A model generated the notes under the pieces. The model saw nothing but the letters and a program-made list of their open reading frames with translations, had not been told where the DNA came from and made no database searches. The translations under genes and the position numbers were made by a program. DNA of 62,699 nucleotides, counting the filler, from Kipferlia bialata (taxonomy: Eukaryota), in the NCBI GenBank assembly GCA_003568945.1. It is 6 parts of 6 records of this genome, joined end to end, with 100 filler letters (N's around TTAATTAATTAA, not from the genome) between each part and the next. Parts side by side here need not be neighbours in the genome. Positions count along the whole stretch, not along the records: positions 1 to 13,124 come from BDIP01000987.1; 5 more parts are not named here. The stretch is one strand, 5' to 3'. Below are positions 1 to 55,372 of the stretch, piece after piece (within the stretch, counting starts at the first letter, position 1; each line of letters begins with the position of its first letter).

Positions 1-51
<51 letters not shown>

Positions 52-190: not shown

Positions 191-411
191 CTGGGTGTAT
201 CTCTGATGGTGGAGGTGGGCCACTTCAGGTTCTGGGCGCTGGTGTATTCCCTGCTCACCCCCTCCCCGCAGGCAGACCAGGTCCACTCAGACACAGCCTC
301 AGCCTCATCTCTACAGCACGTCTCCTCCACATTCACCTTCACACATACAACTCCAGTCTTGAGAGGGGTGGAATCCAGGAGGATGTTTGCACTCGGGGCA
401 AGCGTCATCTC
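191..411 (-). CDS. Probable internal exon of an uncharacterised gene running off the contig start
   Basis: Open minus-strand frame (…MTLAPSANILLDS…RDTP) bounded by a TAG acceptor and a GTAG donor; no recognisable family. Confidence 0.3.
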
Positions 412-558
412 CTAGTACCAATACAGTGACTGTATGAGGGGCAGGGATGCCTATGGGGTCACCCAGGTTGGAGAGACGTCTTCACGTCTGTCTCTCCACG
501 TTTCATCCGATCTTTTCCGGCCTGATATCAGCAGGGTCCCCTCTCTTCTGTCAGAGTG

Positions 559-1176: not shown

Positions 1177-1626
1177 GACATACACCAGATCCCCTCCCTG
1201 CTCTTGCGGGTGAGTCGTTCCATCCCGACAAACTTCCAGCACTTCAGTAGCCCTCGTCTTTCACGGGTTGGGGGGAGATGGAGAGGCATCCTATACCCCA
1301 CTCATCCATACCACATTAAGAGCTCGGAAATGATGTGTTTCGGCAGGTATTGACTGCATCGCTTCAGCCTTAGTGATTGAAGTCCCCTTCGACTCATAGG
1401 TGTACCAGTGACTTCCGTCCAGTTAACACGATATATTACTAGTAGTGATAGGGTCTCAGCAGCAATAGACACAGAGGTGGGCAGTATCAAGCCAGGAACG
1501 GCATTGACAAGTATTGAATACACCTCGTGACAAGCTGAGACTGGGAAGAGTATATATATAGAGATAGATCCACACACCCTCAGACGGGTATCCACACATG
1601 ACACTCTGCACACTAGACAGCCCAGA

Positions 1627-3371: not shown

Positions 3372-3694
3372 ACAGATTCTCCCTGTCTACAAACTCAGAC
3401 ATAGACGGTTCCCGCACAACCTGGGTCTGGGTCACGTCAGCACTCATCGGAGGTACGGCAAGAAGGCAGGGTTTTCAAGAAGCAATCAATCAATGTGACT
3501 GCACTGACTATCGTGTTTTCGAGGTTTTTCCCAAGGGTTCATCTAGCAACGGCCCTGCTAGTAACCCGCTGTGTGATGCTGGGGCAGGATGTTGATCCTT
3601 CGAATAACACATATCAGGCAACTATTCCTCTATGACATGATATATGAGTTCGATTAATGAATGATTGCTCCTTAGGCCAACAGGATGCTCTCTA

Positions 3695-5040: not shown

Positions 5041-5087
5041 CTGGGGGTAGGAGGAATAGAAATGAGGGAGGTGGAAGGAGGGGAGAG

Positions 5088-5119
<32 letters not shown>

Positions 5120-5166
5120 AACCCCCCCCCCCCGCCCCCCCCTTAATACATTACCCTTACTCCTAG

Positions 5167-6379
5167 GTGGAGGTGTCTGGTATGGTAGCTATGCCGCTGC
5201 TGAGGCCCAGAGGGTCATGACATCATCCCCCGCTCCCTCCTGCCCCCTGTCTGTGGTGACCAAGATGACTGAGGCCGACACCCCTCTCTTTGACTTCCCC
5301 CAGTCTGTCACAACATGTGTCCTGCCCTCACCAGTCTCCACAGTCAGTGTCAACACATACCCAGCCAAGGTATCACTCTTCGTGTACCGCCCCCACTGAC
5401 TATCATCATTAGTGCATGGGGACTCTACCTCTCTCTCTCTCTCTCTCTCCCCCCTTACCCCCTCTCTGACCCCCGTAGACCATGACTGCTAGGAGTGACA
5501 GGGTCACTGTGGTAAGGTCTCTGGCAGATGCATACACCATGGAGGATATCGCACAGGCTGCACAGCTCGTGGGGGAGTCATCACCGTCATGGTCCCCCTC
5601 TTCACCTTCTTCTCCCTCCTCCCCGTCCCTCCCCCCTGTGTCAGTCGATGCAGCTGAGTGCGTGCCCTGGGTTGTCCTCAGTGCCCTCTACTCAGAGTTC
5701 CCGCCCTTCCTCATCCCCCACCTCAAGGGCCAGTTCCAGGGGCACAGGCTGGCAGTGGATGTACAAGTACGTAATACATGATTGTATTGTATATATATAT
5801 GCATCTGTATGTGACTTATGCCAGGGCTTCCTGAGGCAGAGACAGGAGGATGGGTCCATCAAGCATGTGGCCCCCACCGGTCTCTTCGACCACATTGACT
5901 GGGTGGACATGGTGAAGCTGGATGACAAGGTGTGGCAATCATGGGTTCAGTATAGAGTATAGAGTGCGACGTCGTATGTAAGTGTCCTTAGTAACCCTCA
6001 GGAGTGTGAGACCATAGTCAACACCATGCTGGTCCCTCCCGCCACCCCAGGCCTTGACTCCAACGCCTGCACCCTCTCCTCTGCATATCCAGCCACTCTA
6101 TTCCTGCTATCCCACGGCAATGGAGTGCGTGTGTACCTAGATGGTAGGTGTGTATCTTCTGTGACCCCATGGGAGGGCATCACTGTGGACATCGAGTGCC
6201 GCACAGGGAGGGGCGACACCATCACTGGCTCCATGTGTTATGCCCTGTCCTGTGGCCTAGACATACCCCGTGCCCTGAGGGTGGCTGGGGTGGTGGTGAC
6301 ACAGAAGCTGCAGACGGTGGGGGTGGGGTACCAGGTAGGGGCAGAGGGCGAGGCCCAGATACAGGCATGTGTAGAATAG
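5167..6379 (+). CDS. PfkB/ribokinase-family carbohydrate kinase, extreme 5' end missing
   Basis: GGGVWYGSYAA…AVDVQ/GFLR…MVKLDDK/ECE…CRTGRGDTITG: N-terminal GG, 'DxQG' and the C-terminal TGxGD anion-hole motif. Confidence 0.75.
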
Positions 6380-6647
6380 ATAATTGTAACAGAGTTACAT
6401 AACGAAACGCGAGGGTTGTTGATGTCTTAAAGGGGAGAAGACATCAGGAAAGGAGTGAATAACTGGGTTCTCTTTAATACACTGCTTGGACTAGGCCCTG
6501 CAACACCTGAACGGTGCCATGACAGGGCCCCTCACACTACACACTCAGCAATAACAAGGACCCGGCCCAACAGACCAGATACATCACACAATACACACAA
6601 CACATAAATGATTCAACAGGTTAACAGCGGGGGTTGGCATACATCCT

Positions 6648-7374
6648 TTACAGGAGGGGGCACCATCCCTGGTTGCTCTGCTTGTCGCTAGAGCCGCTGA
6701 GCTTCCAGATCTCCCTGACAAGCTCGGTGAAGGACTCAACGACGTTGGTCCTGTCACGGGCTGAGGTGAGAATGAGACAACTATTATATGTACTAACAGT
6801 ATACACACATTTTAATCAGAACATGAGGGAGACATACATACACAAGCAAAGCCCTATACACATACAAAAGAGACACAATATACCAGCTATAGCCTACTAC
6901 AGTCTCCATCCACACAAATCACGTACCAGATGTCTCGAAGTGTGGCACTCCGAATGACTCTGCAAGCTTCTTGCCCTCGTCTGTCTCGACCTGGCGCTGG
7001 TTGGTCAGATCACACTTGTTGCCCACAATGACGATGGGGGCTGAGGAGGCGTCCTTGACCCTCAGAACGTGGTCACGAAGGGACACAACCTCCTCGAAAC
7101 TGGACCTGCTGGTGATGGAGTAAACGAGCAGGAAGCCGTCACCCTTGTCCAGGTACTGGTCTCTCATCGAGATGAAGGCCTGCTGGCCTGCAGTGTCCAG
7201 AATGTCAAGCATGACGGTCACATCGTCCACCTTCATGTGCTTCTTGTAGGTATCCTCGATTGTGGGATCATAGTCCTCAATGAAGTACCTCTGGACAAGC
7301 TGGATGGTCAGAGCACTCTTTCCCACACCACAGCTACCCAGAACAACAACAATGTGCTCTCTGAGAGTCGACAT
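6648..7374 (-). CDS. RAS: Ras-family GTPase, 2 exons (7374-6927, 6760-6648)
   Basis: GSCGVGKS, effector loop YDPTIEDTY, DTAGQ, NKCD, ETSA across the intron, C-terminal CaaX CPLL*. Confidence 0.95.
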
Positions 7375-7541
7375 TCTTCTGAAGACGATGCTGATTATCG
7401 CTGACAGTGAGGTCAAGACCTTTTGACACAAAGTGAAGGGCAGGGTCGCCTTCCAGACAACTGAGCACACCCTCTCTTGTAATGCACCAGTCTGTGCTAC
7501 TGGTACTCTGTTTACTATTCCTACAGACACTTGCAGTTAGC

Positions 7542-8261
7542 ATGGGGAAGGATGACACCCGCCCCGTGATCATGGTGCAGATGGGGTCCTTCAACCCAGT
7601 CACCCTGTCCCACCTGCTTGTGATTGAGCAGGCCAAGGGGCACTTTGAGCACAAGATGGGCCGGACGGTGGCAGGGTGCCTGATGTCCCCTGTCAGCGAT
7701 GGGTACCGGTGGCGGAAGCCCAACCTGCTTGACGGTGTGCACAGACTGGCCATGCTGGAGGGTGCCCTGGCCCCCTACCCCCACATTGCAGTGGATAGCT
7801 GGGAGTGCAGCCGGGCAGAGTGGACCAGGACCAAGGTGATCCTGGACCACGTGGCAGAGGACCACCCCGGCCACGCTGTGTGCCTGGTGGCTGGGATCGA
7901 CATGCTGGAGTCGATGGTGGACACCTCCATCTGGAACCCCAAGGACGTGGCAGCCATCCTCGACACATACTACATATACGCACTCCCCAGGCCAGGCGGC
8001 ATTGGCGGGAGGGACACGGAGGAGGTGAGGGACATCATTGCCCACACCCCCCACATGGCGGCCCACCTGCCCCACATCCAGATTGACACTGAGGCCATCC
8101 AGTCTGTGGTCAGTTCTAGTCTGGTCAGGGAGAGGGTGGGGCAGGGCATGTCGGTCAGGTTCATGGTGCCCGACCCTGTGCTAGAGTACATCGAGGCACA
8201 GGGTCTGTACCTGCCCAAGGTGGAGGCAGAGGCAGAGGCAGAGGCCGTGGTGGATCTGTAA
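7542..8261 (+). CDS. NMNAT: Nicotinamide/nicotinate mononucleotide adenylyltransferase, intronless
   Basis: GSFNPVTLSH, SPVSDGY, HRLAM, WE…WTRT, VSSSLVR, VPDPVLEYI…LY eukaryotic NMNAT motifs. Confidence 0.95.
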   Translation: MGKDDTRPVIMVQMGSFNPVTLSHLLVIEQAKGHFEHKMGRTVAGCLMSPVSDGYRWRKPNLLDGVHRLAMLEGALAPYPHIAVDSWECSRAEWTRTKVILDHVAEDHPGHAVCLVAGIDMLESMVDTSIWNPKDVAAILDTYYIYALPRPGGIGGRDTEEVRDIIAHTPHMAAHLPHIQIDTEAIQSVVSSSLVRERVGQGMSVRFMVPDPVLEYIEAQGLYLPKVEAEAEAEAVVDL

Positions 8262-8672
8262 GCTTAGTCAGTGTAGTAAGACATATGGATAACCCTGATG
8301 TGTTAAGTATTTGCACTCGTCTTCGGATGTCTGGTTGGTGTGCTACCAGTCTCTATTGAGTTTGCAGTCACCTGGGAGTAGTTGAGGAGTGGTCGGCTGG
8401 GCCGTAGCATCTATCAATCCCACCCATGTTGATATCCGCTATTCCGACATTCTGGCCGTACAATATTGATAGTACACCAGCAACCATAGTGACAGGTGAA
8501 AATAGAAGGATATCTATGATTGTCGGTGGCGTGTTCATAGATGTATGTCTCATATGTATGACACTGTTACAGTGTAGGAGAAGGATATTGGATTATGTTG
8601 TTTTTGGAGGGTTTATTCTTGTTGTGATACTGGTCCAGTAACTGGATGATAAGCCTCCTTCACCTGAGACTG

Positions 8673-9514
8673 ATGAGTACCATCCCAGAGGCCGTCACGG
8701 CCACAGAGTCCGCCCCAGGACACAGCGTGAATGCCTACCTGCGGCACAAGCTGTACCGCCTGGAGTGCGAGAGGTGGGTGGCAATGTTCTATTGACCTTG
8801 TAATTGATTGTGTGATGACGCCCCCCTCTAACAACCAGGGACTCCATGCAGACCAGGGTGGCTAGACTGGAGGCCAAGAGGAACGTGCTGAACCAGCAAG
8901 TGAGGCAGCTGTGGGAGGAGTCCATTCTGCTACAGGTGGGTGGGGCATGGTATAGTGGTGGGTCTACAGTGTGATGAGTACTGACTGTAGGAGAGCTCCT
9001 GCTCCCTGGCCGATGTCATCAAGCCACTGGGGGACAGGAAGGCACTGGTCAAGGTGCACCCAGACGGCCGCATGATCGTGGAGGTGGATCGCAAGGTATG
9101 GGTTGAAGTGTGTGTAGTATACTAGTGTATGATACGTACTGTTCCTCATACCCAGGTTGACATGGCAGAGGTGGTGGCCAACGCTAGGGTGGCCCTGAGG
9201 TCTGACTCCTACAAGCTGGTGCGTGTGCTGCCCAGCCAGGTCGACCCCCTCGTGGCATTGATGAAGGTGGGGGGAATGTGTGGAAGCTTCACTCCTGGTT
9301 AAGGGTGGTTTCGTATATATATATATATATACCTGTATCAGTCATGTATATACTGGTGCTAGACACGTTGTGAGGTCTTTGTTTCGCATGTGTGTTGTAC
9401 CAGGCGTCATTTAGAATTGTACCTGTTTCTCTGTGCCACTCTCCCTCACCCCAGGTCGAGAAGGTCCCAGACTCCACATATGATGTCATTGGAGGTCTGG
9501 ACAAGCAGATCAGG
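8673..9514 (+). CDS. RPT6: 26S proteasome AAA-ATPase Rpt6 (PSMC5), 5' five exons, truncated by a gap
   Basis: [16 protein letters not shown]…LVKVHPDGR…[46 protein letters not shown] is the Rpt6 signature. Confidence 0.92.
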
Positions 9515-9587
9515 GTGAGTGTATCATTGTATATATATCTCTCTCGCAAATATAGAGGCGCTTCTTCAAGTCCCCCCCCCCCTCTCC

Positions 9588-9618
<31 letters not shown>

Positions 9619-9860
9619 CCTCTACNNNNNNNNNNNNNNNNNNNNNNNNNNNNNNNNNNNNNNNNNNNNNNNNNCATCAGGGGTTTTTCATCGTCCCCCC
9701 CCCCCCCCCCCCCCCCTCTCTCTCTCTCTTCTTACTCCACTCTGTATACACTATGTCTCATCATCAGGAGTTCTTCATCGTGCCCAGACACCCTCTCTCT
9801 CTCTCTCTCTCTCTCTTCTATGCACTTCATATTGTTACACTATGCCTTCCTAACCCCCAG

Positions 9861-10669
9861 GAGTTCTTCATCGTTCCCAGACCCTCTGCCCGGGGTGACA
9901 ACCCATGGGACAAGTATGTGCTGGGGGGGTGCAAGACTAAGCTGTTCTCAAGGTGAGCATACCACTATTTGTGTACGCTAGTGCTATAGTCCAGGTGTCT
10001 TACGTTTCTCATCATTCTCCACATCTCTCTCAATCATTAGGATGGAGCAGCTAGTCATCTTTTCCAATGTATTATTAGTGATACGTGTAGCATGTGTGTC
10101 TTTACCCCAGAAAGGAGCAGCTAGCCATCCTGACCGATATATATGATGATTGTTTATTTTACTATACTATGTACTTCGATACATAGAATCATATATACAT
10201 ATAATCTAACAAACATATATATGTATACTCTAACCATAAGGAAGGAGCAGCTGGCCATCCTGACCCTGGGCAAGAGCCTCTCATTCCTGAGGGATGCACA
10301 GGACCATCAGTACAAGGTATATATACACTATAAGTATATATATATATATATATATATATGGTGTATATATATTCATATGTATATGTGTGTTTGTATTTAT
10401 GAGCCTTTCTTTCCTCAGAGATGCACAGGACCACCAGTACAAGGTATATATGCATGCACACACTATACTCTATATATGTATATATATTCATGTGTGTATG
10501 TACAAAGATTGGTGTGATAATATACACAGGACCACCAGTACAAGGTATATGTATTCATAGTAAAAATGTATTTCCAATACATACCAGATTCATCTCGCTG
10601 TCTCCCTCTCTGTCCATAGATGTAGCCCGTCTTACAGCAGCTCCCCCGCCCCCTCCTCTCTGAGAAACG

Positions 10670-10702
<33 letters not shown>

Positions 10703-10824
10703 AACTATATTAGTTTACGTCTCGTCTCACCCCAGCTCCCCCGCCCCCTGCTGTCTGAGGCACGTCTTGCAGGGGCATTCACAGTTGACAAGGCAGAGCC
10801 AGAGAGGGTGGCAAGGTGGGATAG

Positions 10825-10867
<43 letters not shown>

Positions 10868-11072
10868 ATCACAGTGGACAAGGCAGAGCCAGAGAGGGTG
10901 GCTAGGAACACTTGTATATTTCTCTCTCTCTCTCTCATACTCATTCTTTCCTCTCTCCTTGACGTGTCGCCAAATACTATTGTCTGTATACACTCTTCAT
11001 ATACAATGTGTATTACTGTGCATTGATACTGATACCAGCCGTGTCATGCCCTTTGTGGACGTGGCCTACAGA

Positions 11073-11109
<37 letters not shown>

Positions 11110-12474
11110 TCTCTCTGTCTGTATATCTCACCCCAGCCGTGTGATGCCCTTTGTGGATGTTGATATTATCTCTCTCTCTCTCTCTCTCTCTCCTACTTCC
11201 CTAATCCCCCTTACCCTAGCCGTGTCATGCCCTTTGTGGATGTGGCTAATAGGCATGTGGCACAGAGGGTGCTGTGGATACTCAACGACAAGTACCACAT
11301 GGGTGAGTGGTATACATGTATATCTGCGCTGTAGTATTAACTATGATATGATACTACATAGTCTGTGTCTAACCCTCCAGCAGACCACCTGAGTGGCATC
11401 AGGGACCTAATCTCTCTCTCTCTCTCTCTCTCTCCTCCTCCCCTCCCCCCCCCCTCCTATACCTCTTCTATATATATATACATGTGTTTACCTGTATATG
11501 TATCTAATACCAGCCGACCACCTGTCTGGCATCAGGGACCTGGTCACCCTAGGCAGGGGTGACTTTGCATCAGTCCTGCTGGCAGACATCGTCACAATCC
11601 TTGGTATGTGCTATATATATATATACAGTATTCTGTATATACAGTATATAGAGATATATACCCTTTGCATCAGTCCTGCTGGCAGACATCGTCACAATCC
11701 TAGGTATGTAGTGGTGTCTGTATAGTATATATTGACAGTATATATTGATAGTATATATATACCCTTTGCGTCAGTGTTACTGGCAGACATCGTCACTATC
11801 CTGGGTATGACATACATATGCAGTATTGTATATATACAGTATGCATATGTATGTATGCATCAGTCCTGCTGGCAGACATCGTCACAATCCTGGGTATGTA
11901 TATGTATGTATATATATATATATCATATATGGTATTGTATGTAGGATATTGTATATGGGATACTATATGTGTAAGATATATCTATACTTTGCATCAGTCC
12001 TGCTGGCAGGCATCGTCACAATCCTAGTATTAGGTTTGTGGAGGAGTCGTGTTTCATATATAGAGAGTCTATCCATCTAATACCAGACCGTGATGACTCC
12101 TCCAGACTGTTGAGGAACAGGGTGTCAGACATAGTGTCTGGGGCACTGTCCAAGAGTAGTGCAGGTATGGGTACATAGACTAGTATAGTAATGTATGGGA
12201 GTATCTCTTACCCCAGACCGCCTCCCCCTGTATGTCAAGCAGGCTGTGGATGTGGCAGTGAGGGGCAAGAGGACAGCGGGAGGGGCACAGGCATCAGGTA
12301 TGTGTGTATACTATATGTGTTCTATGTAAATAGTATACGTATATGGTGTGTTCATATACGGGAAGAGGACAGCGGCAGGGGCACAGGCGTCAGGTATTGT
12401 AATTATTGGTGTATAGTGTATATTGGATGTTGTGTGATATTCGTGTGGCACTCAGCTGGGGCTCCTTCAACCTG

Positions 12475-28475: not shown

Positions 28476-29054
28476 ATGCGCGTCCTGACTCTGTGCTGCC
28501 TGGCTCTGGTCTGTGTCGCATTGGGCATGTCTGTCCCATCTAGGCACCCCGGGGTGTACTACTGGGGAGTCCCAGACTCAACTCTCAAGGTACATGTTTA
28601 GACAGTACATCCGTTGTTGAACTTAGCCTTCATCTCTCACCCCCAGCTCGAGGTCTTCGGCGATTACACCTGTGACGCCACAGCTGACTTCTGGTATGTT
28701 TTGGTATCCACGTACATTCCCCCCCCCCCCCTCCCCCTTTACCACCCACATACACATTACAATATACCTCCTCTGCTTCTGTTTGTCTCTCCGTCCCTCT
28801 TACCCCAGGCTCAATGTGGTCGAGCCCCTCATTGACCCCTCCAACCCCTATGGTCCACTTGCCATCAGCCAGTTGGCCGTGGTCTACTACCCATTCAGCC
28901 TGCCCTACCACGCTGCATCATTCTCGGCATCCAAGGTATATATTAGCTAATATATATATATATATATATACTTTCAAATATATTGGCTGGTTTATACATA
29001 CTATGTATGTACGTCTGCCCTACCACGCTGCATCATTCTCGGCATCCAAGGTAT

Positions 29055-29101
<47 letters not shown>

Positions 29102-29221
29102 CATATACATACATATGTACATATACCTACTATATATACTCTGCATCATTCTCGGCATCCAAGGTATGCATACGTGTGTTGACTTTCCTCTCTCAATATT
29201 CATGTTATAATCTTCTTTGTC

Positions 29222-29268
<47 letters not shown>

Positions 29269-29410
29269 CCTCCCCCCTCTTCCTCTTGGTCCTCAGGTAA
29301 TGACCACCCTTAACCTCATACATCCGGAAATATGCATTTTAGTATATAGCAACACTCTAGCTACTGACACCAAGGTCATGTCCACCCTTCACCACACAGA
29401 AGCACAATAT

Positions 29411-29450
<40 letters not shown>

Positions 29451-31730
29451 TTATATATTCATTTTGTCTTCTCTGACATAGGTCATGACCACCCTTGACT
29501 CCCTGAGGGTGAACTCCAGCCTCTTGAACGACAAGGAACAGCACGCAGCACACAAGTATCTCTTTGAGAACCAGGTATCCATTCTCTGTTCAAATGTGGT
29601 ATTCAAACCCCAGTACTATCAACATATCGGGAGATTGAGCTTCACCTCTCTTTCAGCGACTGTTGAGATATGTTGAAGCCATACCACACTCTGTCATTGG
29701 AGTTCAGTGTGCACTAGCATCATTTTATTGATTGTATGTGCCATACCATCTATACCATCTGTACCATCTATTTCCTATACACTCAGGCTGTGCTGTACAA
29801 TGATGCTACCCAGCATGCTGTCACTATATTACAGTATACATTAGCATGTTCGTATTAACAATGTGTCCTTTAGATACTACTTTCTACCCCGTAGGCTGTG
29901 TTGTACAATGACGCCACCCACAATGTCACTAGACCTCCCGACACCCCTCCCTCTCTCTCCCCCTCTATCTCTCTCTCCCCCCCCTCTCCCTCTCTCTCCC
30001 TTACATCCAGGCCGTGCTGTACAATGATGCCACCCACAATGTCTGTTGCATCATTATATTGATTGTATTGATCATATCATATGTCATTAACCATCTGTTT
30101 CCTCTACCTTTAGGCTGTGCTGTACAATGACGCCACCCAACAATATGTCACTCTATTACAGTTTACATTAGCATGTTCGTGTTAACAATGTGTGCTTTAG
30201 ATTCTAGTTTCTACCCCTTAGGCTGTGCTGTACAATGACGCCACCCACAATGTCACCAGAGACGACATCGAGCAGACAGTAATGGATATAGGTGAATACT
30301 ATATATGTGTATTGTATATATATTGTATATATATTGTTATATATACATGTATGTGACCAGAGACGACATCGAGCAGACGGTGATGGACATAGGTGAGTAA
30401 TATTGTGTTTGCATATATATATATATATATAAATGTATATTCATATATGTGTGTGTGTATACTGTATGTCTATTGATATATATATATATATATATATGTA
30501 TGTGACCAGAGACGACAAATTGAGGAGACGGTCATGGACATAGTTGAGTACGATACTGTACACACACACAACGACACTATAGTGTCACTCCCAGTCTATG
30601 TTTGATATGCGTATCACTCTCTCAACCCCAGTCTGTGCCACCCCTGAGATATCATATATTATATATGTGTTTGAATATATGTATATATATATCATATATC
30701 ATATATATACACACAATCTCTCACCCCCAGTCTGTGCCACCCCCGAGATATCTGACACTGTATACTATACCGTATTAAAACTACACATACTATATAAATA
30801 CTATATATGTATATATCTCACCCCCAGTCTGTGCCACCCCCGAGATATCTGAGACTGTCTGCACTGCCCTGCACAATGGCTTTGCAGACACAGAGAGTGA
30901 CACACGGAGTGTGTGGAAGGTACACATACATACATACAAATATTTATATATATATATGTGTGTGTGTGTGTCAGCTGCCGGACACTGTCAAAACCACCTA
31001 TACACACTCTGTATCCACTTTGTGGTCACTGTATGCTCTACTACTATGTGTCTGTGAGCACGATGTATCCGGTACCTACCCATTCACTATACAGCCACAT
31101 AATGTACCCTATATACCGTGTCCCTAATGTCTTACCCCCAGTACAGCTGTGAGCACGGCGTGTCTGGCACCCCCACCACCCATGTCAACGGGGTGGCATT
31201 CCAGGCACCATTCTACTGGGGAGTGGAGGTGAGCACTCCATATACTACTATATTCGTATGTATACCCTCTCTGTGTCTGTGGGGTCATCATTCTACTGGG
31301 GTATAGAGGTACTCACATATATATATATATACATCTATATACCTATCAATACTCTCTCCCTGTGTCAACGGGGTGGCATTCAAGGCGCCATTCTACTGTG
31401 GTGTGGAGGTGAGTACTCTGTATACTAGGATTACTATATACGTATGTATACCCTCTCTTTGTCTATGGGGTCGCCATCACTCTACTGGGGTGTAGAGGTG
31501 GGTACTCGTACACACACACATATAAACACATATATATATATGTGTATTTACAATATGTATACTAATTGATACCCACTATACTCTGTCGAGCTGATGGCAT
31601 TGCATTGGGGAGTTGAGATATGAGTATACTACCTTGCACATTATTGCTCTATAGATACATCACTCACATCCAGGAGTGGACCAACTTCCTGCTGGGTCTC
31701 CTGGACACACCATACTCTGTGGACTTGTAG
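28476..31730 (+). CDS. Secreted thioredoxin-fold DsbA-like protein, multi-exon
   Basis: Signal peptide MRVLTLCCLALVCVALG; LEVFGDYTCDAT (single Cys); PFSLPYH; K/YSCEHGVSGTPTTHVNG (cis-Pro GTP motif); ends PYSVDL*. Confidence 0.75.
29780..30550 (+). repeat. Echo arrays around one DsbA-like exon (4 upstream exon-start copies, 2 downstream exon-end copies)
   Basis: AG|GCYGTGYTGTACAATGAYGCYACCCA repeated; GTGACCAGAGACGAC…ATGGACATAG repeated. Confidence 0.9.
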
Positions 31731-40388: not shown

Positions 40389-43300
40389 ATGTCCATGCGT
40401 GGCGGTGGGCGTAGCGTGCCCCTGAGGTCAGGGGCCAGACCAGGCTCCGGCAGTGGTGCCAGGCCCCTGAGTGGGGCCAGGAAGAGACCAGGTACTGAGA
40501 GTGTGTATGCAGTACTATATATGAATGATCATAAGTGTTTCTCGGATAGCATGTACTATTATACAGGTCGTGCTCACTGTATGTGTGTTTTATACGCATA
40601 CAACTGCTCTGTATGTGTTATATGAGACTTGGGATATGATACTGGGTGTGTATTTGACATAAGTACATGGGGATGTATCCTCTCGATTACCAGGAGTCCT
40701 CTCTCCACCTACGTATATATACCCATTAATGCTGCATGTACTGCATATTGGTGATATCCATTCGTGTGCGTGTCTCTCTCCCACCCCCGGGTACCCTCTC
40801 CCACTTCCACCTGTACATGAATGTGCATTGACTACATGTTGCATACAACTCTGATTACATGTATCTCTCTCTACTCTATCCTCCACCCCCAGGTACCCTC
40901 TCCCTCTCCTCCCCTTATACTTCTTACTTCCTATACACATTCACTGCATGCCTATACTCTTCTCTATCGTCCATATACATCTATTGACCCCAGGCGCCCT
41001 CTCCCTCTCCCATATACGGAGACTGACTATATAAACATATATATATACATCTATATATACTGACCCCAGGTGCCCTCTCCCTCTCCTCCCCCCTGTCCTC
41101 CAACATGGGACTGATGGTGTCACCAGGCAGAGGTAACACTATATAGTAGTACATGTGTATATTGTGATAGTGTATATATGGGACTCATGTTCTGCCCTGG
41201 AAGAGTTGTGTCTGTGCATTACTTCATATGTATTACAGTGTATTAGTATTGATGTGAATACACTTTGAGTATTCATGTGCATATATGGTTGCACTACTAT
41301 GTATATACCCTGACCCCCCAGCCCCTGCCCCCTCAGGCACCCCTAGTGTGTCTAGTGTGGCAGGGGAGAGAGAGAGAGAGAGGCAGAGAGAGGGGGGTGG
41401 GCCCCCCGCGTCACCAAGGTATATCACATATATATATTCTATATATATATGTTATTCTATACCAGGTGAAATCTTCGCTCACCCCCAGCCGCCAGCCCCT
41501 CTCCCTCTCCCTGTCCCGTACCCTTATGCAGTCCCCGCCCTATCCTATGCCCCATACGGTGGGACCAGCATCCACGCTAAGGCCTAGGTATACATACGGT
41601 TTATATATATATATATATGCATATATGTATCAGTCCCCGCCCTACCCCATGCCCCATACGGTGGGGCCTGCATCCACGCTGAGGCCGAGGTATAGTATAT
41701 ATGTATGATGTGCATACTGTATACTATGCTTCTAACCCCCAGCCATTCCATTGCGGAATATGGATGCCATCGATGGATACTATATGTATGTACAATCCTG
41801 TCTATATTACAATGCATTCCTACTCATCCCTAGCCCTGTCCACTCCATGCGCAATGTTGATGACATTGTGAGGAGTGGGATGGGACTATATACACATATA
41901 TATATGTATATATNNNNNNNNNNNNNNNNNNNNNNNNNNNNNNNNNNNNNNNNNNNNNNNNNNNNNNNNNNNNNNNNNNNNNNNNNNNNNNNNNNNNNNN
42001 NNNNNNNNNNNNNNNNNNNNNNNNNNNNNNNNNNNNNNNNNNNNNNNNNNNNNNNNNNNNNNNNNNNNNNNNNNNNNNNNNNNNNNNNNNNNNNNNNNNN
42101 NNNNNNNNNNNNNNNNNNNNNNNNNNNNNNNNNNNNNNNNNNNNNNNNNNNNNNNNNNNNNNNNNNNNNNNNNNNNNNNNNNNNNNNNNNNNNNNNNNNN
42201 NNNNNNNNNNNNNNNNNNNNNNNNNNNNNNNNNNNNNNNNNNNNNNNNNNNNNNNNNNNNNNNNNNNNNNNNNNNNNNNNNNNNNNNNNNNNNNNNNNNN
42301 NNNNNNNNNNNNNNNNNNNNNNNNNNNNNNNNNNNNNNNNNNNNNNNNNNNNNNNNNNNNNNNNNNNNNNNNNNNNNNNNNNNNNNNNNNNNNNNNNNNN
42401 NNNNNNNNNNNNNNNNNNNNNNNNNNNNNNNNNNNNNNNNNNNNNNNNNNNNNNNNNNNNNNNNNNNNNNNNNNNNNNNNNNNNNNNNNNNNNNNNNNNN
42501 NNNNNNNNNNNNNNNNNNNNNNNNNNNNNNNNNNNNNNNNNNNNNNNNNNNNNNNNNNNNNNNNNNNNNNNNNNNNNNNNNNNNNNNNNNNNNNNNNNNN
42601 NNNNNNNNNNNNNNNNNNNNNNNNNNNNNNNNNNNNNNNNNNNNNNNNNNNNNNNNNNNNNNNNNNNNNNNNNNNNNNNNNNNNNNNNNNNNNNNNNNNN
42701 NNNNNNNNNNNNNNNNNNNNNNNNNNNNNNNNNNNNNNNNNNNNNNNNNNNNNNNNNNNNNNNNNNNNNNNNNNNNNNNNNNNNNNNNNNNNNNNNNNNN
42801 NNNNNNNNNNNNNNNNNNNNNNNNNNNNNNNNNNNNNNNNNNNNNNNNNNNNNNNNNNNNNNNNNNNNNNNNNNNNNNNNNNNNNNNNNNNNNNNTTATA
42901 CTATAGGGAGAGAGAGGGGGGGAGGCAGGTGCAGACGGCTAGGCCAGGTGGGTACACATTACACTGTTGTAATATATACATGTATACTGTATATTAATTT
43001 GTGGGGTATAGAGAGATATGAGTAAGGGGAGGCAGGTGCATACTGCTAGGCTGGGTAGATACTGTATGTACTGGAAGAACTCGTATAATTATGGAATGTG
43101 TACCAATAGTGTTATGGTGGTCACATATTCATTCATAGTCATCTCTATACTATTATTACTATACATCCTACCCCCAGACCTCAGACCTGCCAACACCGCC
43201 CCCCACCCATATGAGTATTACACTAGTATTTACGTGTACCAGTATTATATGTATCATTTATACACCTCTCACCCCAGGCATCCGACGTGCCAACACGGCC

Positions 43301-46300
43301 CCCCACAGGAGTAGAACGGTCAGACCACCCACCAGTGGGGGGACAGGTACATATCATATATATCATAGGCATAGCAGTGTCAGTGTCACTATCACAGTGG
43401 TATCAGTGTCAGTCGCCATAGTGATACATCTGTACATCTATACTGACACAGGCACCCAGAGGGGTAGGAGACAGAGACCAGAGACAGCACCAATGCCCAG
43501 GGGAAGGGGGAGGGGGAGAGTGGAGGTATGTATCTAGTGCATATTTGTGTATATGTATGTATGTATATATATATATACTAACCCACAGGCCAGACTGGAG
43601 GTTGCCATGTATATGTGTATGTGTGTGAGTACTCATATATTGATGTATAATTATGTTAATGTCTCACTCTAGGCCCGACTCGAGGTTGCCAATATAAATG
43701 TGTATGTGTGTGTGTTCAGTATATATAATTATTGTATACAATATCAATATATACATATACACATGTCTCACTCTAGGCCAGACTCGAGGTTGCCTCTCTA
43801 CATATATATATGTGTTTGTGTCTCCCTCCAACTCTATATCTCTCTCTCTCGACACTTCTTTCACCCAGTATATGTATGTGTGTATGTATCTATATCTATA
43901 TATAGATATATATAGATAGATATATATATGTATATATATATATATACTAATTAGTGTCACTCCCCCCAGGCCCGGCTCGAGGTTGCCTCTCTCCTCAAGG
44001 ACACCAACATGGGGCAGCTGATGGAGACTAGGTATAGTGTGAGTACACATATATATAGAGAGAGGGATATATAGAGGGTGGTAGAGAGAGGGGGGGGGGA
44101 GGGCGCCAACATGGGGCAGTTGATGGAGACGAGGAATGATATCTGATTAAAGGTCTCATATACCCTATGTTGTGCATACTCTCCTACGCCCAGGAACCAT
44201 GCCGTGAATGCATAGATATATACATATTGACATATGAATATAGGTGTTCTATTTCGTATTCACACACATTCTCTTTGACCCCAGGAACCGTGCCTCTGTG
44301 GATGATGTGAGCATATATATATACATGTTGACTAATATATATATATATATATATATATACTATTCTGTATATATACATATGCATTCTATCTAACCCTCTA
44401 GGAACCGTGCCTCTGTCGATGATGTGAGCAGGTGGTACCTGGACCAGCTAGACAGGTATAGTTGATGTATAGATAGATAGATATGTATTGTAGATGTATG
44501 GATGGATGGATATTCATACATATATAGATATGTGTATATATACATGTATTATGTATAGTAGGTGCTACCTGGACCAGCTGGACAGGTACCGTTTATGTCA
44601 CATTTGTACACAGTATTCCATTGTCGATATATGGCTCACCCTTTAGAGTCAGTTCCACCTCTTCAGGCAACATCCATCGTGGCAGTTATTCATTCTTAAT
44701 TTCCTACTGGTTTATCACTCAATAGTATTCTGCATACCCTCACCCTAGAGTCCGTTCCACCTCGTCTGGCAACAGATACCTGATATATATGTATGCCATA
44801 CATACAAGTATATTCTTATCATACCCCACATCCATTGCATCTCATTGTAGAGTCCGCTCCACCTCGTCTGGCAACAGACACCTCAGGGAGAGGATGTCAT
44901 ACAACATGCACCTGGACCTACTGGCAAGGTATGAATGCGAATGGCCACCTTGTGGATATATGTATATATTATATTCGACCTGCATGCCACTCTTATCCCA
45001 GGATCAGTGCGTCTGACATGTCGTACAGATGGCCCTTCTCTCTTTTCCCCTCTTTCTCTAATCATATACATCCCTCTCTATATACTCTTACCCCAGGATC
45101 AGTGCCTCCGACATGTCGTATGGGCACCTTGTGGAGAGGGTCAGACAGCAGATGGAGGGGGAGAGAGAGAGAGACAGGGCGTCCCAGGTCTCAGACAGAC
45201 AGGAGATGATGACGGAGATTGTCAGGCTCCAGAGGGACATTAGGTACCTAGACGACTTTCGTATACATAAATATGTGTATGTTGTCTCTCTCGCTTACCC
45301 CCAGCATGATAGCATACATGTGATATATAGCTGTCTGTGTGCTGTGTATATGAATATAATCTATTCTCTAACCATTTAATGTCATGTCTGAGTCTGTGAC
45401 CCTGGAGAAGAGAGTATATATATTCTTAGCATGTTTATATGAGTATCATACACTCTAACTCCTCAGTGCCCTGTCTGAGTCTCTGACCCTTGAGAAGAGA
45501 GAGTGTGTATATACTATATACATCCAATATATATATATATATAATAACTGTAGTCTAACCTCTAGTGCCCTGTCTGAGTCTCTGACCCTTGAGAAGAGGG
45601 CAGCCATCAAGGAGGAGGCGCTGGTGCAGAAGCTGAGGGCTCAGGTATGATATATGTATGTATATATATATATTACTATATTGGTACATATAGTGATGGA
45701 ATGGGTATGGATACATGGTATCCAGGAGGAGGCACTGGTGCAGAAGCTGAGATATATGTGTGTGTATGTGTGTATGCGTATATAGATATACGCAGTGTGT
45801 ATGTATTGATATATACACGCCATAACCCTCTAGGCAGCTGCCAGGGACATGCGTATTAGACACCTGGATACCGTATATATACCATATACATCATTATATA
45901 TACGTATATATTGTATAGTGTATGTGTATAGTTTGTAGGCATACATCTTATTCTAGGCCGCTGCCAAGGACATGCGCATTAGACACCTGGAGGCCCAGCT
46001 GGCAGAGGAGACTAGCCCCAGGGCAAGGCTCGAGACGGAGGTATGTGTATGTGTTCTGTACACTACATATACTGTACGATATGTGTACAGTATACAGTAT
46101 CACCCATTGTCACTCACCTTGTAGGTCCGTGACCATGTGAATGACCTCAATGTCTATCTATATATTAATACACTCCTGTATATTCATTACTAATGACTCT
46201 CTCCAACCCTCTAGGTCCGTGACCATGTGAATGACCTCGAGGGCCTAGCCGAGTTCACCCTGCCCTCCGATGCTGAGGACTGGCAACCGAGTGAGGCACC

Positions 46301-46316
46301 TGACGACGTCAATTGA
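40389..46316 (+). CDS. Hypothetical protein with an R/P/S-rich N-terminus and coiled-coil C-terminus; spans a 1-kb gap
   Basis: Exons give RPGSGSGARP…RPETAP…MMTEIVRLQRDI/SALSESLTLEK…KDMRIRHLEAQLAEE…APDDVN*. Confidence 0.55.
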
Positions 46317-49681: not shown

Positions 49682-51429
49682 CTACCAGTACATCTCCTCC
49701 CCTGGGCATGGGTGGTCTGGGTGGACGGGGCCAGACCTGACACCGGCCATGACAAGCTGGCACCTGGGGTAAGGGGGATACGCAGTCTATTAACACAATA
49801 CAAACATCCAGTAACTATACCACATAGTTATATGTGTATGCCATGGCAGGCTGGCACCAGATAATGAGGGGGGGGGGGGGGGGCAATCAAGGCCTCCAGT
49901 TGCTACACTATACACGTTTGTATTCAATATACATACAATACCTGAAGCCTGCCAGCCTAGGGATGGCCACGTCTATGTCTGCCTTATATATATTCTAATA
50001 TGTNNNNNNNNNNNNNNNNNNNNNNNNNNATGTCTGCCTTATATATATTCTAATATGTATATATGTATACACACACACACACACACACGTATATATATAC
50101 AACTATACCTGAAGTCTGCCAGCCTGGGGATGGCCACATCTATGTCTGATACCTCCTTCTGGGACCACAGGCGCTCGGCAACAGCAGCGGCCCTGGGGGT
50201 TAGTATATATATATACTTACATATGTATGCTGAGAGTATACTAAACTCGGCAACGGCTGCGGCCCTGGGGGTTGGTATATATTTATATATATATATATGT
50301 ATGCTGAGAGTTTCATGAGCTCGGCAACAGCTGCGGCCCTAGAGAGTCAGAGAGTCCAGTGATGGTACATGTATATATATATACAAATATATATATATAG
50401 TTATAGACGCTCGGCAACAGCTGCGGCCCTAGAGAGTCAGAGAGTCCAGTGAAGATATATGTATATATATATACATATATATATATAGTTATAGACGCTC
50501 GGTAACGGCAACGGCCCTGCAGAGTTAGGAACATGCATGCGTGGAAACGTATTATGCACCACTATCACATGTATGAATCCGGGCCATATCCAGGTGTCAA
50601 TGTTGTATATATCTATAGTATAGATTCTCTATATAGTATACTTATATCTATGAATACTACCAATGTACCTTGGCCACATCCAGCTGTCGATGTTGGATGC
50701 ATCTCTCTCTCTATAGATATCCCTCTACTCATATCCCTGTACTATTATTACTATACATATATGTACATAAATATTACCTTGGCCATATCCAGCTGTCGAT
50801 GTTGGCAGCGTCGATGGCCTCACCCCACATGGGGACCTCTCCTCCTGGGGTAAGGGTATACAACATCTACACTGTATATATATACACAATCCATAGTATC
50901 TGTCACATACCACACCGGGACCTCACCGCTTAAGGTGAGAGTGGTATGTATACGATAAGAGTTAGAGAAGACATACCCAGGATCAGGGCACCCTCGTGCT
51001 CATATACACATATATAGAGTATACACATATATACATGTATAGATACATATGTATACATATACCATCCACAAACCCAGAATCAGTACCTCTTCGTGCTAAT
51101 CAAGGTAAGAGTAGAATAATGTATGCATAGTACTGTATAGTTAATACACATATATGCCACCCACCAATGATCAGTGCCTTCTCGTGCTCGTCTAGGTCGA
51201 CACCCATACATATAATTTATATATCAATAATATATATAATTACAGTATATATATATATATATATACATGTATCATACCCAGAATCAGGGCCTCCTCGTGC
51301 TCGTCTAGGTCGAGGCCGGCGGTGGGCTCGTTGCTAGGGTTGGCATGTGTGTGAATATCGTGTATACTATATCCAATCTATTTCAACTCAGTATATAAAT
51401 TTATGTATAGTATTAATATATATATATAC

Positions 51430-51462
<33 letters not shown>

Positions 51463-52277
51463 CTATCTACCTGTAGAAGTTCTGCCAGGTGTCAGCAAAG
51501 AAGAAATGGTATTCAAATATTAGTAGTACATATTACATACCTATATCATGTATATGTATATATCAATAAACACTATATATACTGTATTCTAAACACTATA
51601 TACCTGTAGAAGTTCTGCCAGGTGTCAGCAAAGAGGTAGTGCGTGGGGTATCCTGGGATCTGCTTGTCCAGGTACCAGCCGCCTACAGTGAGGGGGGGGG
51701 GGGAGTGAGTACGTATGAGTGCATGTATATAGGAGGGGAACGAATATGTACGATGACTACCTGACAGTAGACCCCTGTACCCTGCCTTGACAACATATGC
51801 TATATACATCATACAATAATCATACTACATTGAATACTCTATGATATATTCGTCAATACTGACCTGACAGGAGTCCCCTGTACCCTGCCTTGACAATGTC
51901 TCCCAGGGTGGCCTGGTCCTCCCAGGACTGGGGGTGAGGGGGATATATAAACATATGCGTGTGTATGTGTGTATGTGTATGTATGAGAACGTGCTATACT
52001 AGAGGGAACGTATTCTCTTACAGTGGTGGTGCAACAGAATGATAAAACAACAGACAATAATACATGTATGTATACATATACAATACGCTTATATATGCAC
52101 CCACCTGCACAATTGTGTCGAGGGGGATGGGGTTTCCGTTCTGGAAGGTCTCCTGCCACACAACCTGGCTGGGGGGTGAGGGGGGTTACCACAACATATC
52201 CACATGTATATACATATACACTATTATCTCACGTGACCCCCTCTGGCATGACTGTGTTGAGTGTCTCTCTCTCTCCT

Positions 52278-52319
<42 letters not shown>

Positions 52320-52430
52320 CATATACACCATTAACTCACGTGACCCCCTCTGGCATGACTGTGTTGAGGGTCTGTGTGAAGTATCTCCACAGTCCATGCA
52401 CATCACTGATGTCATGGGCAGCCATCCAAG
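49682..52430 (-). CDS. GH20 beta-N-acetylhexosaminidase, 3' half
   Basis: Spliced QVVWQETF…GYRGLLS/GGWYLD…TWQNFY…ILG/GEVPMWGEAID…IWP/RAAAVAERLWS…PRLADF/RCQLVMAGV…HPC, the HEXA/HEXB C-terminal signatures. Confidence 0.9.
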
Positions 52431-53789: not shown

Positions 53790-55372
53790 ATGGAGGAAGA
53801 CTCTGACGAGGATGTGTTTATAACCAAGCAGGAGTGCAAAATGTATGCCAAGTACATGATAGCAGTGGGGTGAGTTGATGTTTATATATGAGATATTCTA
53901 ACAGTGTATCCTTGTCTCACTGCCAGGCACCGTTGCTGGAGAGTGCTATCTTTCATGGGTCTTCCCGATGGCCTAGTGATGACTGAGGAACAGAAACTGA
54001 AGTCTTTCATCTCTCTGAGGTTGGGCATGGGTCTGCAGATGAGATGTTCAAGGTATGGAGCACTGTATAAAGTAGATATATAGTATATATAGTATATATA
54101 GTATATATAGTATATAGTGTATATTCATAGTGGGGATGGGTCTGCAGATGAGATGTTCAAGGTATGTGTAATATATGGTATATGAAGTATACATGTGGTA
54201 TATATAGTATATAGTGTATATATATAGTATCTATCTCTCAGGATGGGAATGGGTCTGCAGAGAAGGTGTTCACGGTTTGTGTCATGTGCTATAGTTCAAT
54301 GGATATATGTATTGTATATTGTGCAAAGATTTTTATAGTGGAAATGGTGCATGGAAGGTGTTCATGGTATGTATCACGTGCGAATATTATACTCTTAGTA
54401 GATATAGTATGGGTAGCACATCGTATATATATACAGTAGAGATATTTGATACACTGGACGTATATCATGCATGTATACTCTATATCTGGAGAGGAAGTGT
54501 ACAAGAGAATTAACCAAATATGAGCCTCTTTGTTTGTGTTCTCTCTCTCTCTCTCCCTCTCTCTCTCTCCCAGCTCTCAGCTCGGTCGTGATTCTTTTGT
54601 CATTTATATAATATATATATATAATATATATATATAATATATATTGTATTGTGTACCACTATTTATTATTGTTTATATACAATATAGTATTGTATATTGT
54701 ATTATATATATCGCATGTGGCTGTCTCTATACTTCTTCTGTATTCCTCCTCACCCAAGCGCGAAGTGGGGAGCCCTTGACTATGGAGCTATAAAGCATGG
54801 GTATATGCCAAAGGTACTGTAGTCAATACAATAGTATTTCATAATTATAATGGACAATACATTAGTTTTACATACATGTAATTTTACTAGATACAACTGC
54901 TCTCTTTAGTAGTATATATGTGTGTGTGTTTATCTAGTTGCATGCATAACTCTGAGAGGTTTCCAACCATACACTATAAATGGGGTATTCTTCCATGCCA
55001 AGTAGGTCTTTACAAGTGTCCGAATTGTACATATATATATATCCTTATCAGTGTCGTCACTGTTTATGTATTATGTCTAGTTAAATCCTCTCTCTCTCTG
55101 GGTCATCTTTTCGTTGTACTATTCTCTCTCTCCCTCTTGCTCACTTGGAAACTTCCTCGGAGTCTTATGTTCGTATGGGCTCCCAGATCTTCTCTCTCTC
55201 TCTCTCCCTCTTGTTAATTCCTTAGGAATTCTCCGAGGTGTTCTATGCTAATGTTCGAAAGTATGGGCCGCCAGATCCATCCGATCGGCTGACAGAACTT
55301 AAGCAGTGGAGGCGCCTCTACAAGCCACTTCTTCCATTACTCAAACTGGCGCTCCATAACAACTTCATCTAG
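53790..55372 (+). CDS. Small hypothetical protein (4 exons), copy A of an inverted paralog pair
   Basis: MEEDSDEDVFITKQECKMYAKYMIAVG/HRCWRVLSFM…GLQMRCS/AKWGALDYGAIKHGYMPK/EFSE…DPSDRLTELKQWRRLYKPLLP…*; exon-for-exon match to copy B. Confidence 0.8.

What the first reader, a model, noticed from the sequence alone, without database searches (positions are those of the whole stretch)
10274..11810. Echo copies differ from the real exon by purely synonymous changes
Seen in three hand-picked examples. (1) Exon AGC CTC TCA TTC CTG AGG GAT GCA CAG GAC CAT CAG TAC AAG vs echo at ~10402 AGC CTT TCT TTC CTC AGA GAT GCA CAG GAC CAC CAG TAC AAG: 5/5 silent. (2) Exon TTT GCA TCA GTC CTG CTG…ACA ATC CTT vs echo at 11765 TTT GCG TCA GTG TTA CTG…ACT ATC CTG: 6/6 silent, including CTG>TTA. 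(3) DsbA echo at ~30353: 4/4 silent. Some other echoes do carry replacements or indels. Dead intronic copies should gain mostly non-synonymous changes. Inference: these echoes diverged while protein-coding, so they are either captured from divergent functional alleles by unequal recombination or are still used as exchangeable exon halves.
Basis: partly seen in the sequence, partly recalled or inferred. Interest (0 to 1): 0.9.

Follow-up and report, generated by a model that had tools for sequence, protein, structure and literature searches.

The report
Intron echoes record divergent exon alleles
Introns of several genes of the free-living protist Kipferlia hold about a hundred half-copies of the neighbouring exons that differ from them mostly by silent changes, likely because each was once the working exon on another, very different chromosome, which would point to recombination among highly diverse chromosomes in a group where sex has not been observed.

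Summary
In five modelled genes (70 exons) I found 106 intronic echoes. All 58 upstream echoes cover the exon's 5' half, typically behind an acceptor; all 48 downstream ones cover the 3' half, typically before a donor. They sit in ~100-nt tandem units. Echo versus exon: 144 silent and 67 replacement differences; 0-fold/4-fold ratio 0.14 (bootstrap 0.10-0.19). A copy dead from birth should give about 0.5, not 1; 17 of 17 clonal simulations gave 0.46-0.68. The replacements look unselected (4 stops, 3.1 expected), are nearly all private to one echo, and are twice as dense echo-echo (0.051) as exon-echo (0.029). So each echo likely had a long coding phase, then a short dead one. Best model (0.6): junction-spanning tandem duplicates turning over fast in a population with silent diversity near 0.2, so that exon and echo come from different working alleles; simulations of this reproduce the numbers. 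No second allele was seen, and no reads could be examined. Continued use as exon halves is unlikely (0.1). I found no description in print.

The parts
9861..12853 (+). Gamma-tubulin complex component (GCP3-like) gene fragment, 8 modelled exons, 19 echoes (27 silent, 6 replacement differences)
   Evidence: GT-AG, open frame; model contained exactly in public P0003; Pfam GCP_C_terminal E 1e-15; counts; 'GCP3' rather than another GCP is my recalled reading
10241..10316 (+).
10401..10443 (+). Downstream echo: 3' 43 nt of exon 2 plus intact GT donor; 5 of 5 differences silent
10522..10544 (+). Second downstream echo of exon 2 plus GT; shares CAT>CAC with the first; 1 replacement at its ragged edge
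10641..10664 (+). Upstream echo: AG plus 5' 24 nt of exon 3 (10736-10815); 2 silent
10869..10905 (+). Downstream echo of exon 3; 2 silent; donor lost (GA)
11039..11168 (+). Two upstream echoes (11039-11065, 11137-11168) of exon 4 (11220-11302), each behind an AG
11381..11408 (+). Upstream echo of exon 5; TCT>AGT (both Ser)
11514..11603 (+).
11663..12027 (+). Array of four downstream echoes of exon 5 (ending 11703, 11804, 11893, 12027), about 100 nt apart. The first two start at the same exon position behind the same flank yet differ at 6 silent positions; the last has lost its donor
13237..23612 (+). ABC transporter gene (ABCA-like), 33 modelled exons, 40 echoes, pN/pS 0.16
   Evidence: Pfam ABC_tran E 2e-7 on one exon; subfamily A is my recalled reading
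17606..18196 (+). Five downstream echoes of exon 17431-17516; one Leu codon occurs as CTG, CTT, CTC and CTA among six copies; four-gamete pairs present
28476..31730 (+).
   Evidence: spliced model identical to public P0002; counts
40389..46316 (+). Unnamed low-complexity gene in two pieces around an N gap, 13 modelled exons, 18 echoes
   Evidence: frame from splice-phase chaining only, no homologue searched
49682..52430 (-). Hexosaminidase-like gene fragment, 8 exons, 14 echoes, pN/pS 0.18
   Evidence: only a weak Pfam GH20 hint on one exon, E 0.097; name mostly recalled
54231..54274 (+). Echo in gene F that is closer to the intact exon of the inverted paralogue at 56859-56984 (-) (4 of 41 differences) than to its own exon 53927-54052 (7 of 41)
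   Evidence: not among the 106

Best explanation
The echoes are ~100-nt tandem units made of half an exon, its splice site and ~70 nt of intron, and each is likely a now-dead piece of a formerly working allele from a different haplotype of a very diverse, recombining Kipferlia population. Shown: the anatomy, the strict polarity, the low replacement ratio, the random kind of the replacements. Inferred step 1: short tandem duplications arise often, and only those spanning a single splice junction are tolerated, because the extra half-exon lacks its other splice site; this explains why 5' halves lie upstream and 3' halves downstream. Inferred step 2: exon and echo come to derive from different working alleles. 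Either the piece is copied from the other homologue during offset repair or unequal crossover between an echo and the exon, or ordinary recombination later swaps the exon for another allele. Inferred step 3: echoes then decay neutrally and are lost about 30 times faster than a site mutates, so they carry ~0.03 random changes per site on top of ~0.18 inherited silent differences. Inferred step 4: the spliceosome uses the first donor and last acceptor, probably by exon definition. Loss of NHEJ and Rad51A and two Dmc1 paralogues in fornicates would suit mismatch-tolerant exchange; that link is untested.
For: Ratio 0.14, CI 0.10-0.19. Clonal models with slippage, sister exchange and conversion gave 0.46-0.68 in 17 of 17 runs. 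Outcrossing models with realised silent diversity 0.18-0.26 and fast turnover gave 0.08-0.17 in 8 of 8 runs; one gave exon-echo 0.216/0.030 and echo-echo 0.232/0.061 against observed 0.209/0.029 and 0.207/0.051. 33 of 35 0-fold variants in multi-echo families are singletons; replacements match a random spectrum (BLOSUM -0.47 vs -0.61, P 0.26; 4 stops vs 3.1). Echo donors differ from their own exon's donor at 1.8 of 4 positions yet score like real donors (median 6.0 vs 6.3, P 0.58); CTNAC lies before 29/55 echo acceptors, 47/64 real ones and 19% of random windows. In the 11 arrays with 3 or more echoes, 18 of 19 shared variants are third-position and 3 arrays show four-gamete pairs. Farthest echoes are more decayed than nearest (pN 0.039 vs 0.019, P 0.057). 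One echo matches an intact paralogue better than its own exon. Silent diversity of 0.20 exists in Schizophyllum (PMC4576712, abstract), where crossovers favour exons (PMC4209137, passages). Fornicate repair genes: PMC8516963 passages.
Against: No divergent second allele was seen: P0002 and P0003 are single-member clusters on one contig each, and two metagenome scans found no relative. The species' genome paper reports one eukaryotic coverage peak and an assembly size matching the k-mer estimate, which does not suggest haplotypes 20% apart in the cultured strain. Four of five outcrossing settings gave only 0.36-0.51, so the fit needs both record-level diversity and fast turnover. Intron flanks are far more diverged (identity 0.63 vs 0.57 for unrelated introns, roughly 0.5 substitutions per site) than 4-fold sites, more than known within-species diversity. 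Silent counts are close to homogeneous (dispersion 1.16), where capture from alleles of varied relatedness might give more spread. In the paralogue case the flank does not favour the paralogue (0.57 vs 0.60). The simulations are toy models (36 two-state sites, lethal replacements, N 100-600).
Confidence: 0.6

Rival explanations
1. The donors were a few deeply diverged copies rather than ordinary alleles: homeologues of a past hybrid, cryptic species or paralogues. Template switches during loss of heterozygosity left ~100-nt overlap scars. Same two-phase history, different source.
For: Near-uniform silent divergence (dispersion 1.16; 17 identical echoes, 15.4 expected). Intron flanks diverged as between species. 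One echo resembles an intact paralogue. No divergent allele needed in today's strain.
Against: Two parents predict shared alternative states; instead 29 4-fold variants are echo singletons against 7 shared by all echoes and 5 shared by some, one site shows 4 states and two show 3, and arrays are mosaic. A gradient of decay along arrays suggests an ongoing process.
Confidence: 0.15
2. Echoes are still used, by a non-heritable route (RNA-level switch or transient DNA rearrangement) that puts an echo half in place of the exon half in some transcripts, so weak purifying selection keeps the protein sequence while junctions and flanks grow old.
For: Exon parts ~94% identical while flanks are near saturation; 88 of 100 echoes that reach the junction keep GT or AG, with real-like donor strength; 54 of 106 are protein-intact. 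Shared junctions within arrays suggest old insertion points.
Against: Stops are not depleted (4 vs 3.1) and replacements are no more conservative than random; 5 gapped echoes; 12 of 100 lost the dinucleotide; canonical in-register swap possible in only 5 of 106; public models skip them (these are predictions). Heritable conversion cannot lower the ratio below ~0.46.
Confidence: 0.1
3. Assembly or library artefact: pieces of divergent haplotypes or of several strains in one culture laid in tandem by a short-read assembler.
For: Unit spacing (median 101.5 nt) is close to a short-read length; echo reach tops out at 59 nt, near a common k-mer size (recalled); the window is gap-ridden and has one likely mis-join.
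Against: Only 1 of 106 inner junctions lies within 15 nt of an N gap; a graph bubble would start with a shared k-mer, but only 7 of 88 differing echoes have 21 or more identical nt at that end; working alleles would not carry stops and frameshifts; all 70 exons stay intact and polarity is 106 of 106; up to six distinct copies of one exon end.
Confidence: 0.08
4. Ordinary cis tandem duplicates, dead from birth; the silent bias comes from the exon side and from picking examples.
For: Polarity, unit structure and the +103 nt of intron per echo (r 0.92) are what cis duplication gives.
Against: Predicts a ratio of about 0.5 or more; observed 0.14, P about 1e-15 treating sites as independent, 0 of 5000 family bootstraps reach 0.5; echo-echo ratio 0.25. 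It would need exon sites to mutate about six times faster than echo sites.
Confidence: 0.03

Closest known systems
Internal (intragenic) tandem duplication spanning an exon-intron junction (Gao & Lynch 2009, seen only as cited in PMC4974935; the potato RdRp case in that paper)
   Same: Short tandem duplicate that carries a splice site and ends up inside an intron without changing the protein.
   Different: Here it is not occasional: 46 of 64 modelled introns hold one to six copies, of near-constant unit size, and the copies bear a purifying-selection signature that a cis duplicate cannot have. No new intron is created.
Duplicates founded from already divergent alleles (Spofford 1969; Proulx & Phillips 2006, as summarised in PMC3857721)
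   Same: The two copies start out different because they were alleles.
   Different: Those models concern whole functional genes kept by selection; here the copies are half-exons that appear dead, numerous and short-lived.
Hypervariable species: Schizophyllum commune (PMC4576712, PMC4209137), Caenorhabditis brenneri
   Same: Silent diversity of 0.13-0.20 and crossovers concentrated in exons are the conditions the best model needs.
   Different: In those species diversity was measured between genomes; here it is inferred from one assembly. The parts I saw of those papers mention no echo arrays.
Mutually exclusive duplicated exons (recalled)
   Same: Tandem exon copies with low dN/dS.
   Different: Those are whole exons with both splice sites; no echo reaches beyond 65% of its exon or has both sites.
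Silent-cassette gene conversion: chicken Ig pseudo-V genes, trypanosome VSG, Borrelia vls (recalled)
   Same: Truncated nearby copies that could donate sequence to the expressed copy.
   Different: Those diversify surface or immune proteins at the amino-acid level; here the genes include a gamma-tubulin complex subunit and a transporter, and the differences are mostly silent.

Membership tests
Junction-spanning internal tandem duplication | Direct, adjacent copy containing one exon end, its splice site and flanking intron | tested here: met
   58/58 upstream echoes are 5' halves, 48/48 downstream are 3' halves; spacing IQR 91-115 nt; downstream echoes precede upstream ones in 11 of 11 mixed introns
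Junction-spanning internal tandem duplication | Intron part of the unit homologous to the source intron end | tested here: inconclusive
   Identity 0.63 vs 0.57 for other introns, P<0.001, but only 21 of 100 in the top 5%
Dead-at-birth pseudo-exon | dN/dS to the source exon of about 0.5 or more | tested here: not met
   0.14, CI 0.10-0.19; simulated floor 0.46-0.68
Allele-derived duplicate | Silent-biased divergence plus a thin layer of random decay | tested here: met
Allele-derived duplicate | Echo variants exist as working alleles on other haplotypes | not testable with these tools
   No whole genome, no reads examined, no relative in two metagenome scans, single-member protein clusters; one paralogue-matching echo only
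Mutually exclusive duplicated exons | Whole exon with both acceptor and donor | tested here: not met
   Maximum reach 65% of the exon
Intron gain by AGGT tandem duplication (Rogers model) | In-register GT in the first copy and AG in the second | tested here: not met
   Possible in 5 of 106 echoes
Silent-cassette conversion system | Cassette sequence appears in the expressed copy or transcript | not testable with these tools
   Needs reads; indirect signs are negative (stops, gaps, random replacements)
False haplotype duplication in assembly | Copies joined at gaps or sharing a full k-mer at the branch point; both copies intact | tested here: not met
   1/106 junctions near N; 7/88 with 21 or more identical nt at the junction end; stops and gaps in echoes
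False haplotype duplication in assembly | Junctions unsupported by reads, half depth on copies | not testable with these tools
   No reads examined

The most novel reading that the evidence does not exclude
Kipferlia keeps an in-gene library of exon halves: a mismatch-tolerant, Dmc1-based route writes junction-spanning pieces of other alleles into introns, and the protein-intact ones (54 of 106 here), which keep real-strength splice signals, are swapped in for the resident half at the RNA or transient-DNA level. That would be exon-half exchange in ordinary cellular genes, unlike any splicing or cassette system I know.
Probability: 0.1. Interest if true: 0.95.

Novelty: new variant of a known kind. 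Interest (0 to 1): 0.72.

Why it matters
If the best model holds, one assembly carries a readable record of many past alleles of each gene. It would imply recombination between haplotypes and silent diversity near 0.2, at the eukaryote record, in a free-living metamonad. [quoted passage not shown] It also shows a route of intron growth (about 103 nt per echo) and poses a splicing problem: a reduced spliceosome (87 of 174 proteins, PMC6679479) must ignore strong decoy donors and acceptors spaced one normal intron length apart. Echoes also mislead annotation, as at the end of P0003.

Tried and rejected
No whole genome was held, so everything rests on one 62.7-kb window. No sequencing reads were examined, so neither junction support nor echo use in transcripts was tested. 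Two metagenome scans for relatives (P0001, P0002) found none. A search with the intronless ORF 26848-27942 found no homologue; P0001 found only itself. Three look-ups of earlier scan findings gave nothing relevant (the single hit shares 2 of 176 words). An all-against-all BLAST was swamped by microsatellites. A synthetic window was rejected because window proteins exist in public collections. Edge effects were rejected: trimming 0-12 nt leaves the ratio at 0.12-0.16. Shared ancestry inflating counts was rejected: distinct events give 0.17-0.18, single-echo families 0.13. Selection through collapse or conversion of echo into exon was rejected by simulation. Whole-exon duplication with later erosion was rejected by polarity. 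Junction microhomology was listed but could not be judged because flanks are too diverged. One search had off-by-one coordinates for the paralogue and for echo 3; one search corrects them and only one search is used for that comparison.

Full report
Setting. The window is eukaryotic and intron-rich, made of six segments joined by 100-nt linkers (N runs). Two of my spliced models match public proteins named Kipferlia bialata: P0002 is identical and P0003 contains the 228-aa model exactly. I therefore treat the window as K. bialata, a free-living fornicate. No whole genome was held and no reads were examined.

Gene models. I modelled by hand the genes with visible repeats: a gamma-tubulin complex component (9861-12853, Pfam), an ABC transporter (13237-23612), a thioredoxin-fold gene (28476-31730), an unnamed gene in two pieces (40389-46316) and a hexosaminidase-like gene (52430-49682, minus; weak support). 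All 64 internal introns are GT-AG and all frames are open. These genes were chosen for their repeats, but an annotation-free scan shows little was missed: 222 of 233 local repeat pairs lie in their 25 kb; of the 11 in the other 35 kb, 8 belong to two further echo-bearing genes at 53.3-54.3 kb and 3 look like chance. None lies in clearly intergenic DNA.

Anatomy. Aligning each exon to each intron of its gene gave 115 hits; I kept the 106 in adjacent introns scoring 26 or more (20 of 3172 control pairs reach that). All 58 upstream echoes cover the 5' half of the exon and all 48 downstream echoes the 3' half. Of 100 that reach the junction, 50/55 keep AG and 38/45 keep GT. Units are spaced 101.5 nt (IQR 91-115), each adds about 103 nt to its intron (r 0.92), and 46 of 64 introns hold at least one. 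No echo reaches past 65% of its exon, although ~38 should pass 70% if breakpoints were uniform. This is the shape of tandem duplications across one splice junction, the only kind that leaves the mRNA intact (inference).

The silent bias. Over all 106: 144 silent and 67 replacement differences, codon positions 37/31/143, pN/pS 0.14, and 0.07-0.18 per gene model. 0-fold sites differ at 54/1866 and 4-fold sites at 103/492; the ratio is 0.12-0.16 under any trimming, 0.17-0.18 with each change counted once, and 0.10-0.19 by family bootstrap. A copy dead from birth should show about 0.5: replacements accrue on one side, silent changes on both. Toy simulations of a clonal lineage with duplication, deletion, unequal sister exchange and conversion gave 0.46-0.68 in 9 of 9 and 8 of 8 runs. 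So both lineages were protein-coding for most of their divergence.

The dead phase. The replacements look unselected: mean BLOSUM -0.47 against -0.61 at random (P 0.26), 4 stops against 3.1 expected; 33 of 35 0-fold variants in multi-echo families are singletons; echo-echo 0-fold divergence (68/1325) is about twice exon-echo, while 4-fold divergence is the same (67/324). Five echoes have gaps. The farthest echo of an array tends to be more decayed than the nearest (pN 0.039 vs 0.019, P 0.057). This fits a star: each echo has ~0.03 of private random change on top of ~0.18 of silent difference. The test for stops has little power with 70 changes.

The intron side. Flanks are barely closer to their own exon's flank than to unrelated introns (0.63 vs 0.57), equal to roughly 0.5 substitutions per site, even for the 17 echoes with identical exon parts (0.47-0.87). 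Yet echo donors score like real donors (median 6.0 vs 6.3) while differing from their own exon's donor at 1.8 of 4 positions (2.28 for random pairs); acceptors are somewhat weaker (8.1 vs 10.8, P 0.016); CTNAC is found in 29/55 against 47/64 and 19%. The flanks also seem to have diverged under splicing constraint. The youngest, identical units are probably under-counted, since several N gaps sit inside arrays.

How many sources. In 11 arrays with three or more echoes, 18 of 19 shared variants are third-position and 3 arrays contain four-gamete pairs (repeat mutation could also do this). One Leu codon takes four forms among six copies. Echoes that start at the same point still differ silently (11703 vs 11804), as expected if exchange between an echo and the exon of another haplotype refreshes the exon part behind an old junction. 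In gene F one echo is closer to the intact exon of a nearby inverted paralogue (4/41) than to its own (7/41), sharing an Arg codon; its flank does not favour the paralogue.

Fit of the allele model. Outcrossing simulations with realised silent diversity 0.18-0.26 and echo loss 30-36 times the mutation rate gave 0.08-0.17 in 8 of 8 runs, whether echoes were captured from another haplotype at birth or made in cis and decoupled later; diversity 0.06-0.10 gave 0.22-0.32 in 2 runs. In one search only 1 of 5 outcrossing settings came close (0.20); the others gave 0.36-0.51. So the model needs record-level diversity and fast turnover.

Against it. No second allele appears among public proteins: P0002 and P0003 are single-member clusters on one contig; P0001 is on 2 contigs, unexplained. 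Metagenome scans were empty. The species' genome paper reports a diploid k-mer profile, one eukaryotic coverage peak and 51 Mb against a 49-54 Mb estimate. Flank divergence exceeds known within-species levels. Unit size, length cap and gene specificity are unexplained.

Artefact check. Only 1 of 106 junctions is near an N gap, only 7 of 88 differing echoes begin with 21 or more identical bases, and working alleles would not carry stops. Reads are still needed.

Literature. Seen: PMC5874029 parts 1-3 of 6 plus a term search with no hit for 'tandem' or 'duplicat' in the whole main text; passages of PMC8516963 (NHEJ absent in metamonads; Rad51A lost and two Dmc1 paralogues in all fornicates examined; sex not directly observed), PMC6679479, PMC4209137, PMC4974935, PMC3857721; abstract of PMC4576712; listing-level abstracts on Dmc1 mismatch tolerance (PMC11514202, PMC8682777). 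Gao & Lynch 2009 and Proulx & Phillips 2006 were not read. Nine searches showed no description of such arrays; the library lacks most subscription papers. Supplements were not opened; duplicate-gene counts and the species' own repair-gene list there may bear on the ploidy and mechanism claims. Mutually exclusive exons and cassette systems are recalled.

Verdict. Observation confirmed and extended window-wide. Interpretation partly supported: coding history yes, allele origin likely (0.6, plus 0.15 for a few deeply diverged donors), continued use unlikely (0.1), artefact unlikely (0.08). New variant of a known kind; interest 0.72.

Noticed in passing
window 13125-13224, 26329-26428, 39520-39619, 52698-52797, 58070-58169: Five identical 100-nt linkers (44 N, a 12-nt stop-in-all-frames spacer, 44 N): the window is six contigs joined, so neighbourhood across them means nothing.
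   Followed up: yes
window 8670-9515 and 9861-12853 across the N gap 9626-9674: Public P0003 fuses a proteasomal ATPase N-terminal part to the gamma-tubulin complex component across the gap; probably a scaffolding mis-join at C/CT repeats.
   Followed up: partly
window 12984-13030: P0003 ends with a repeated SVFKMIW stretch: the annotation appears to use an echo as last exon at the contig end.
   Followed up: partly
window 53790-55364 (+) and 55976-57471 (-): Inverted paralogue pair, 16 of 68 amino acids different over the first two exons, differences spread over all codon positions (9/7/12); only the + copy showed echoes in the scan.
   Followed up: partly
window 26848-27945 (+), 31998-33092 (-), about 47700-48888 (-): Three acidic-tailed ORFs that look like one family by eye; the first has no homologue at E 0.001 and neither of the first two is in the collection as called.
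   Followed up: partly
window 13922-13947, 16753-16779, 21558-21595, 51074-51106: All four stop codons in echoes are TAG; three lost donors read GA in place of GT (10905, 13022, 44133). May be mutation bias or selection against decoys.
   Followed up: no
window 1-9600, 23900-25600, 34120-39460, 58230-62699: Intron-containing genes with short introns and no echoes, one directly beside the echo-rich transporter gene. By eye they include a Ras, a Rab, a cysteinyl-tRNA synthetase and a SAM synthetase (recalled labels, not tested), perhaps highly expressed genes.
   Followed up: partly
window 7542-8258: The cytidylyltransferase-like protein P0001 is recorded on 2 contigs (longest 23779), unlike P0002 and P0003; possibly a separately assembled second copy or allele.
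   Followed up: no
window 52655-52697 (-): Looks like the 3' half of a tRNA gene cut by the contig end; not scanned.
   Followed up: no
window 20044-20103, 19404-19470, 15860-15880: Remnants that look like echoes with almost no exon part left (an acceptor or donor plus a few bases); a decayed tail below my detection limit is likely.
   Followed up: no
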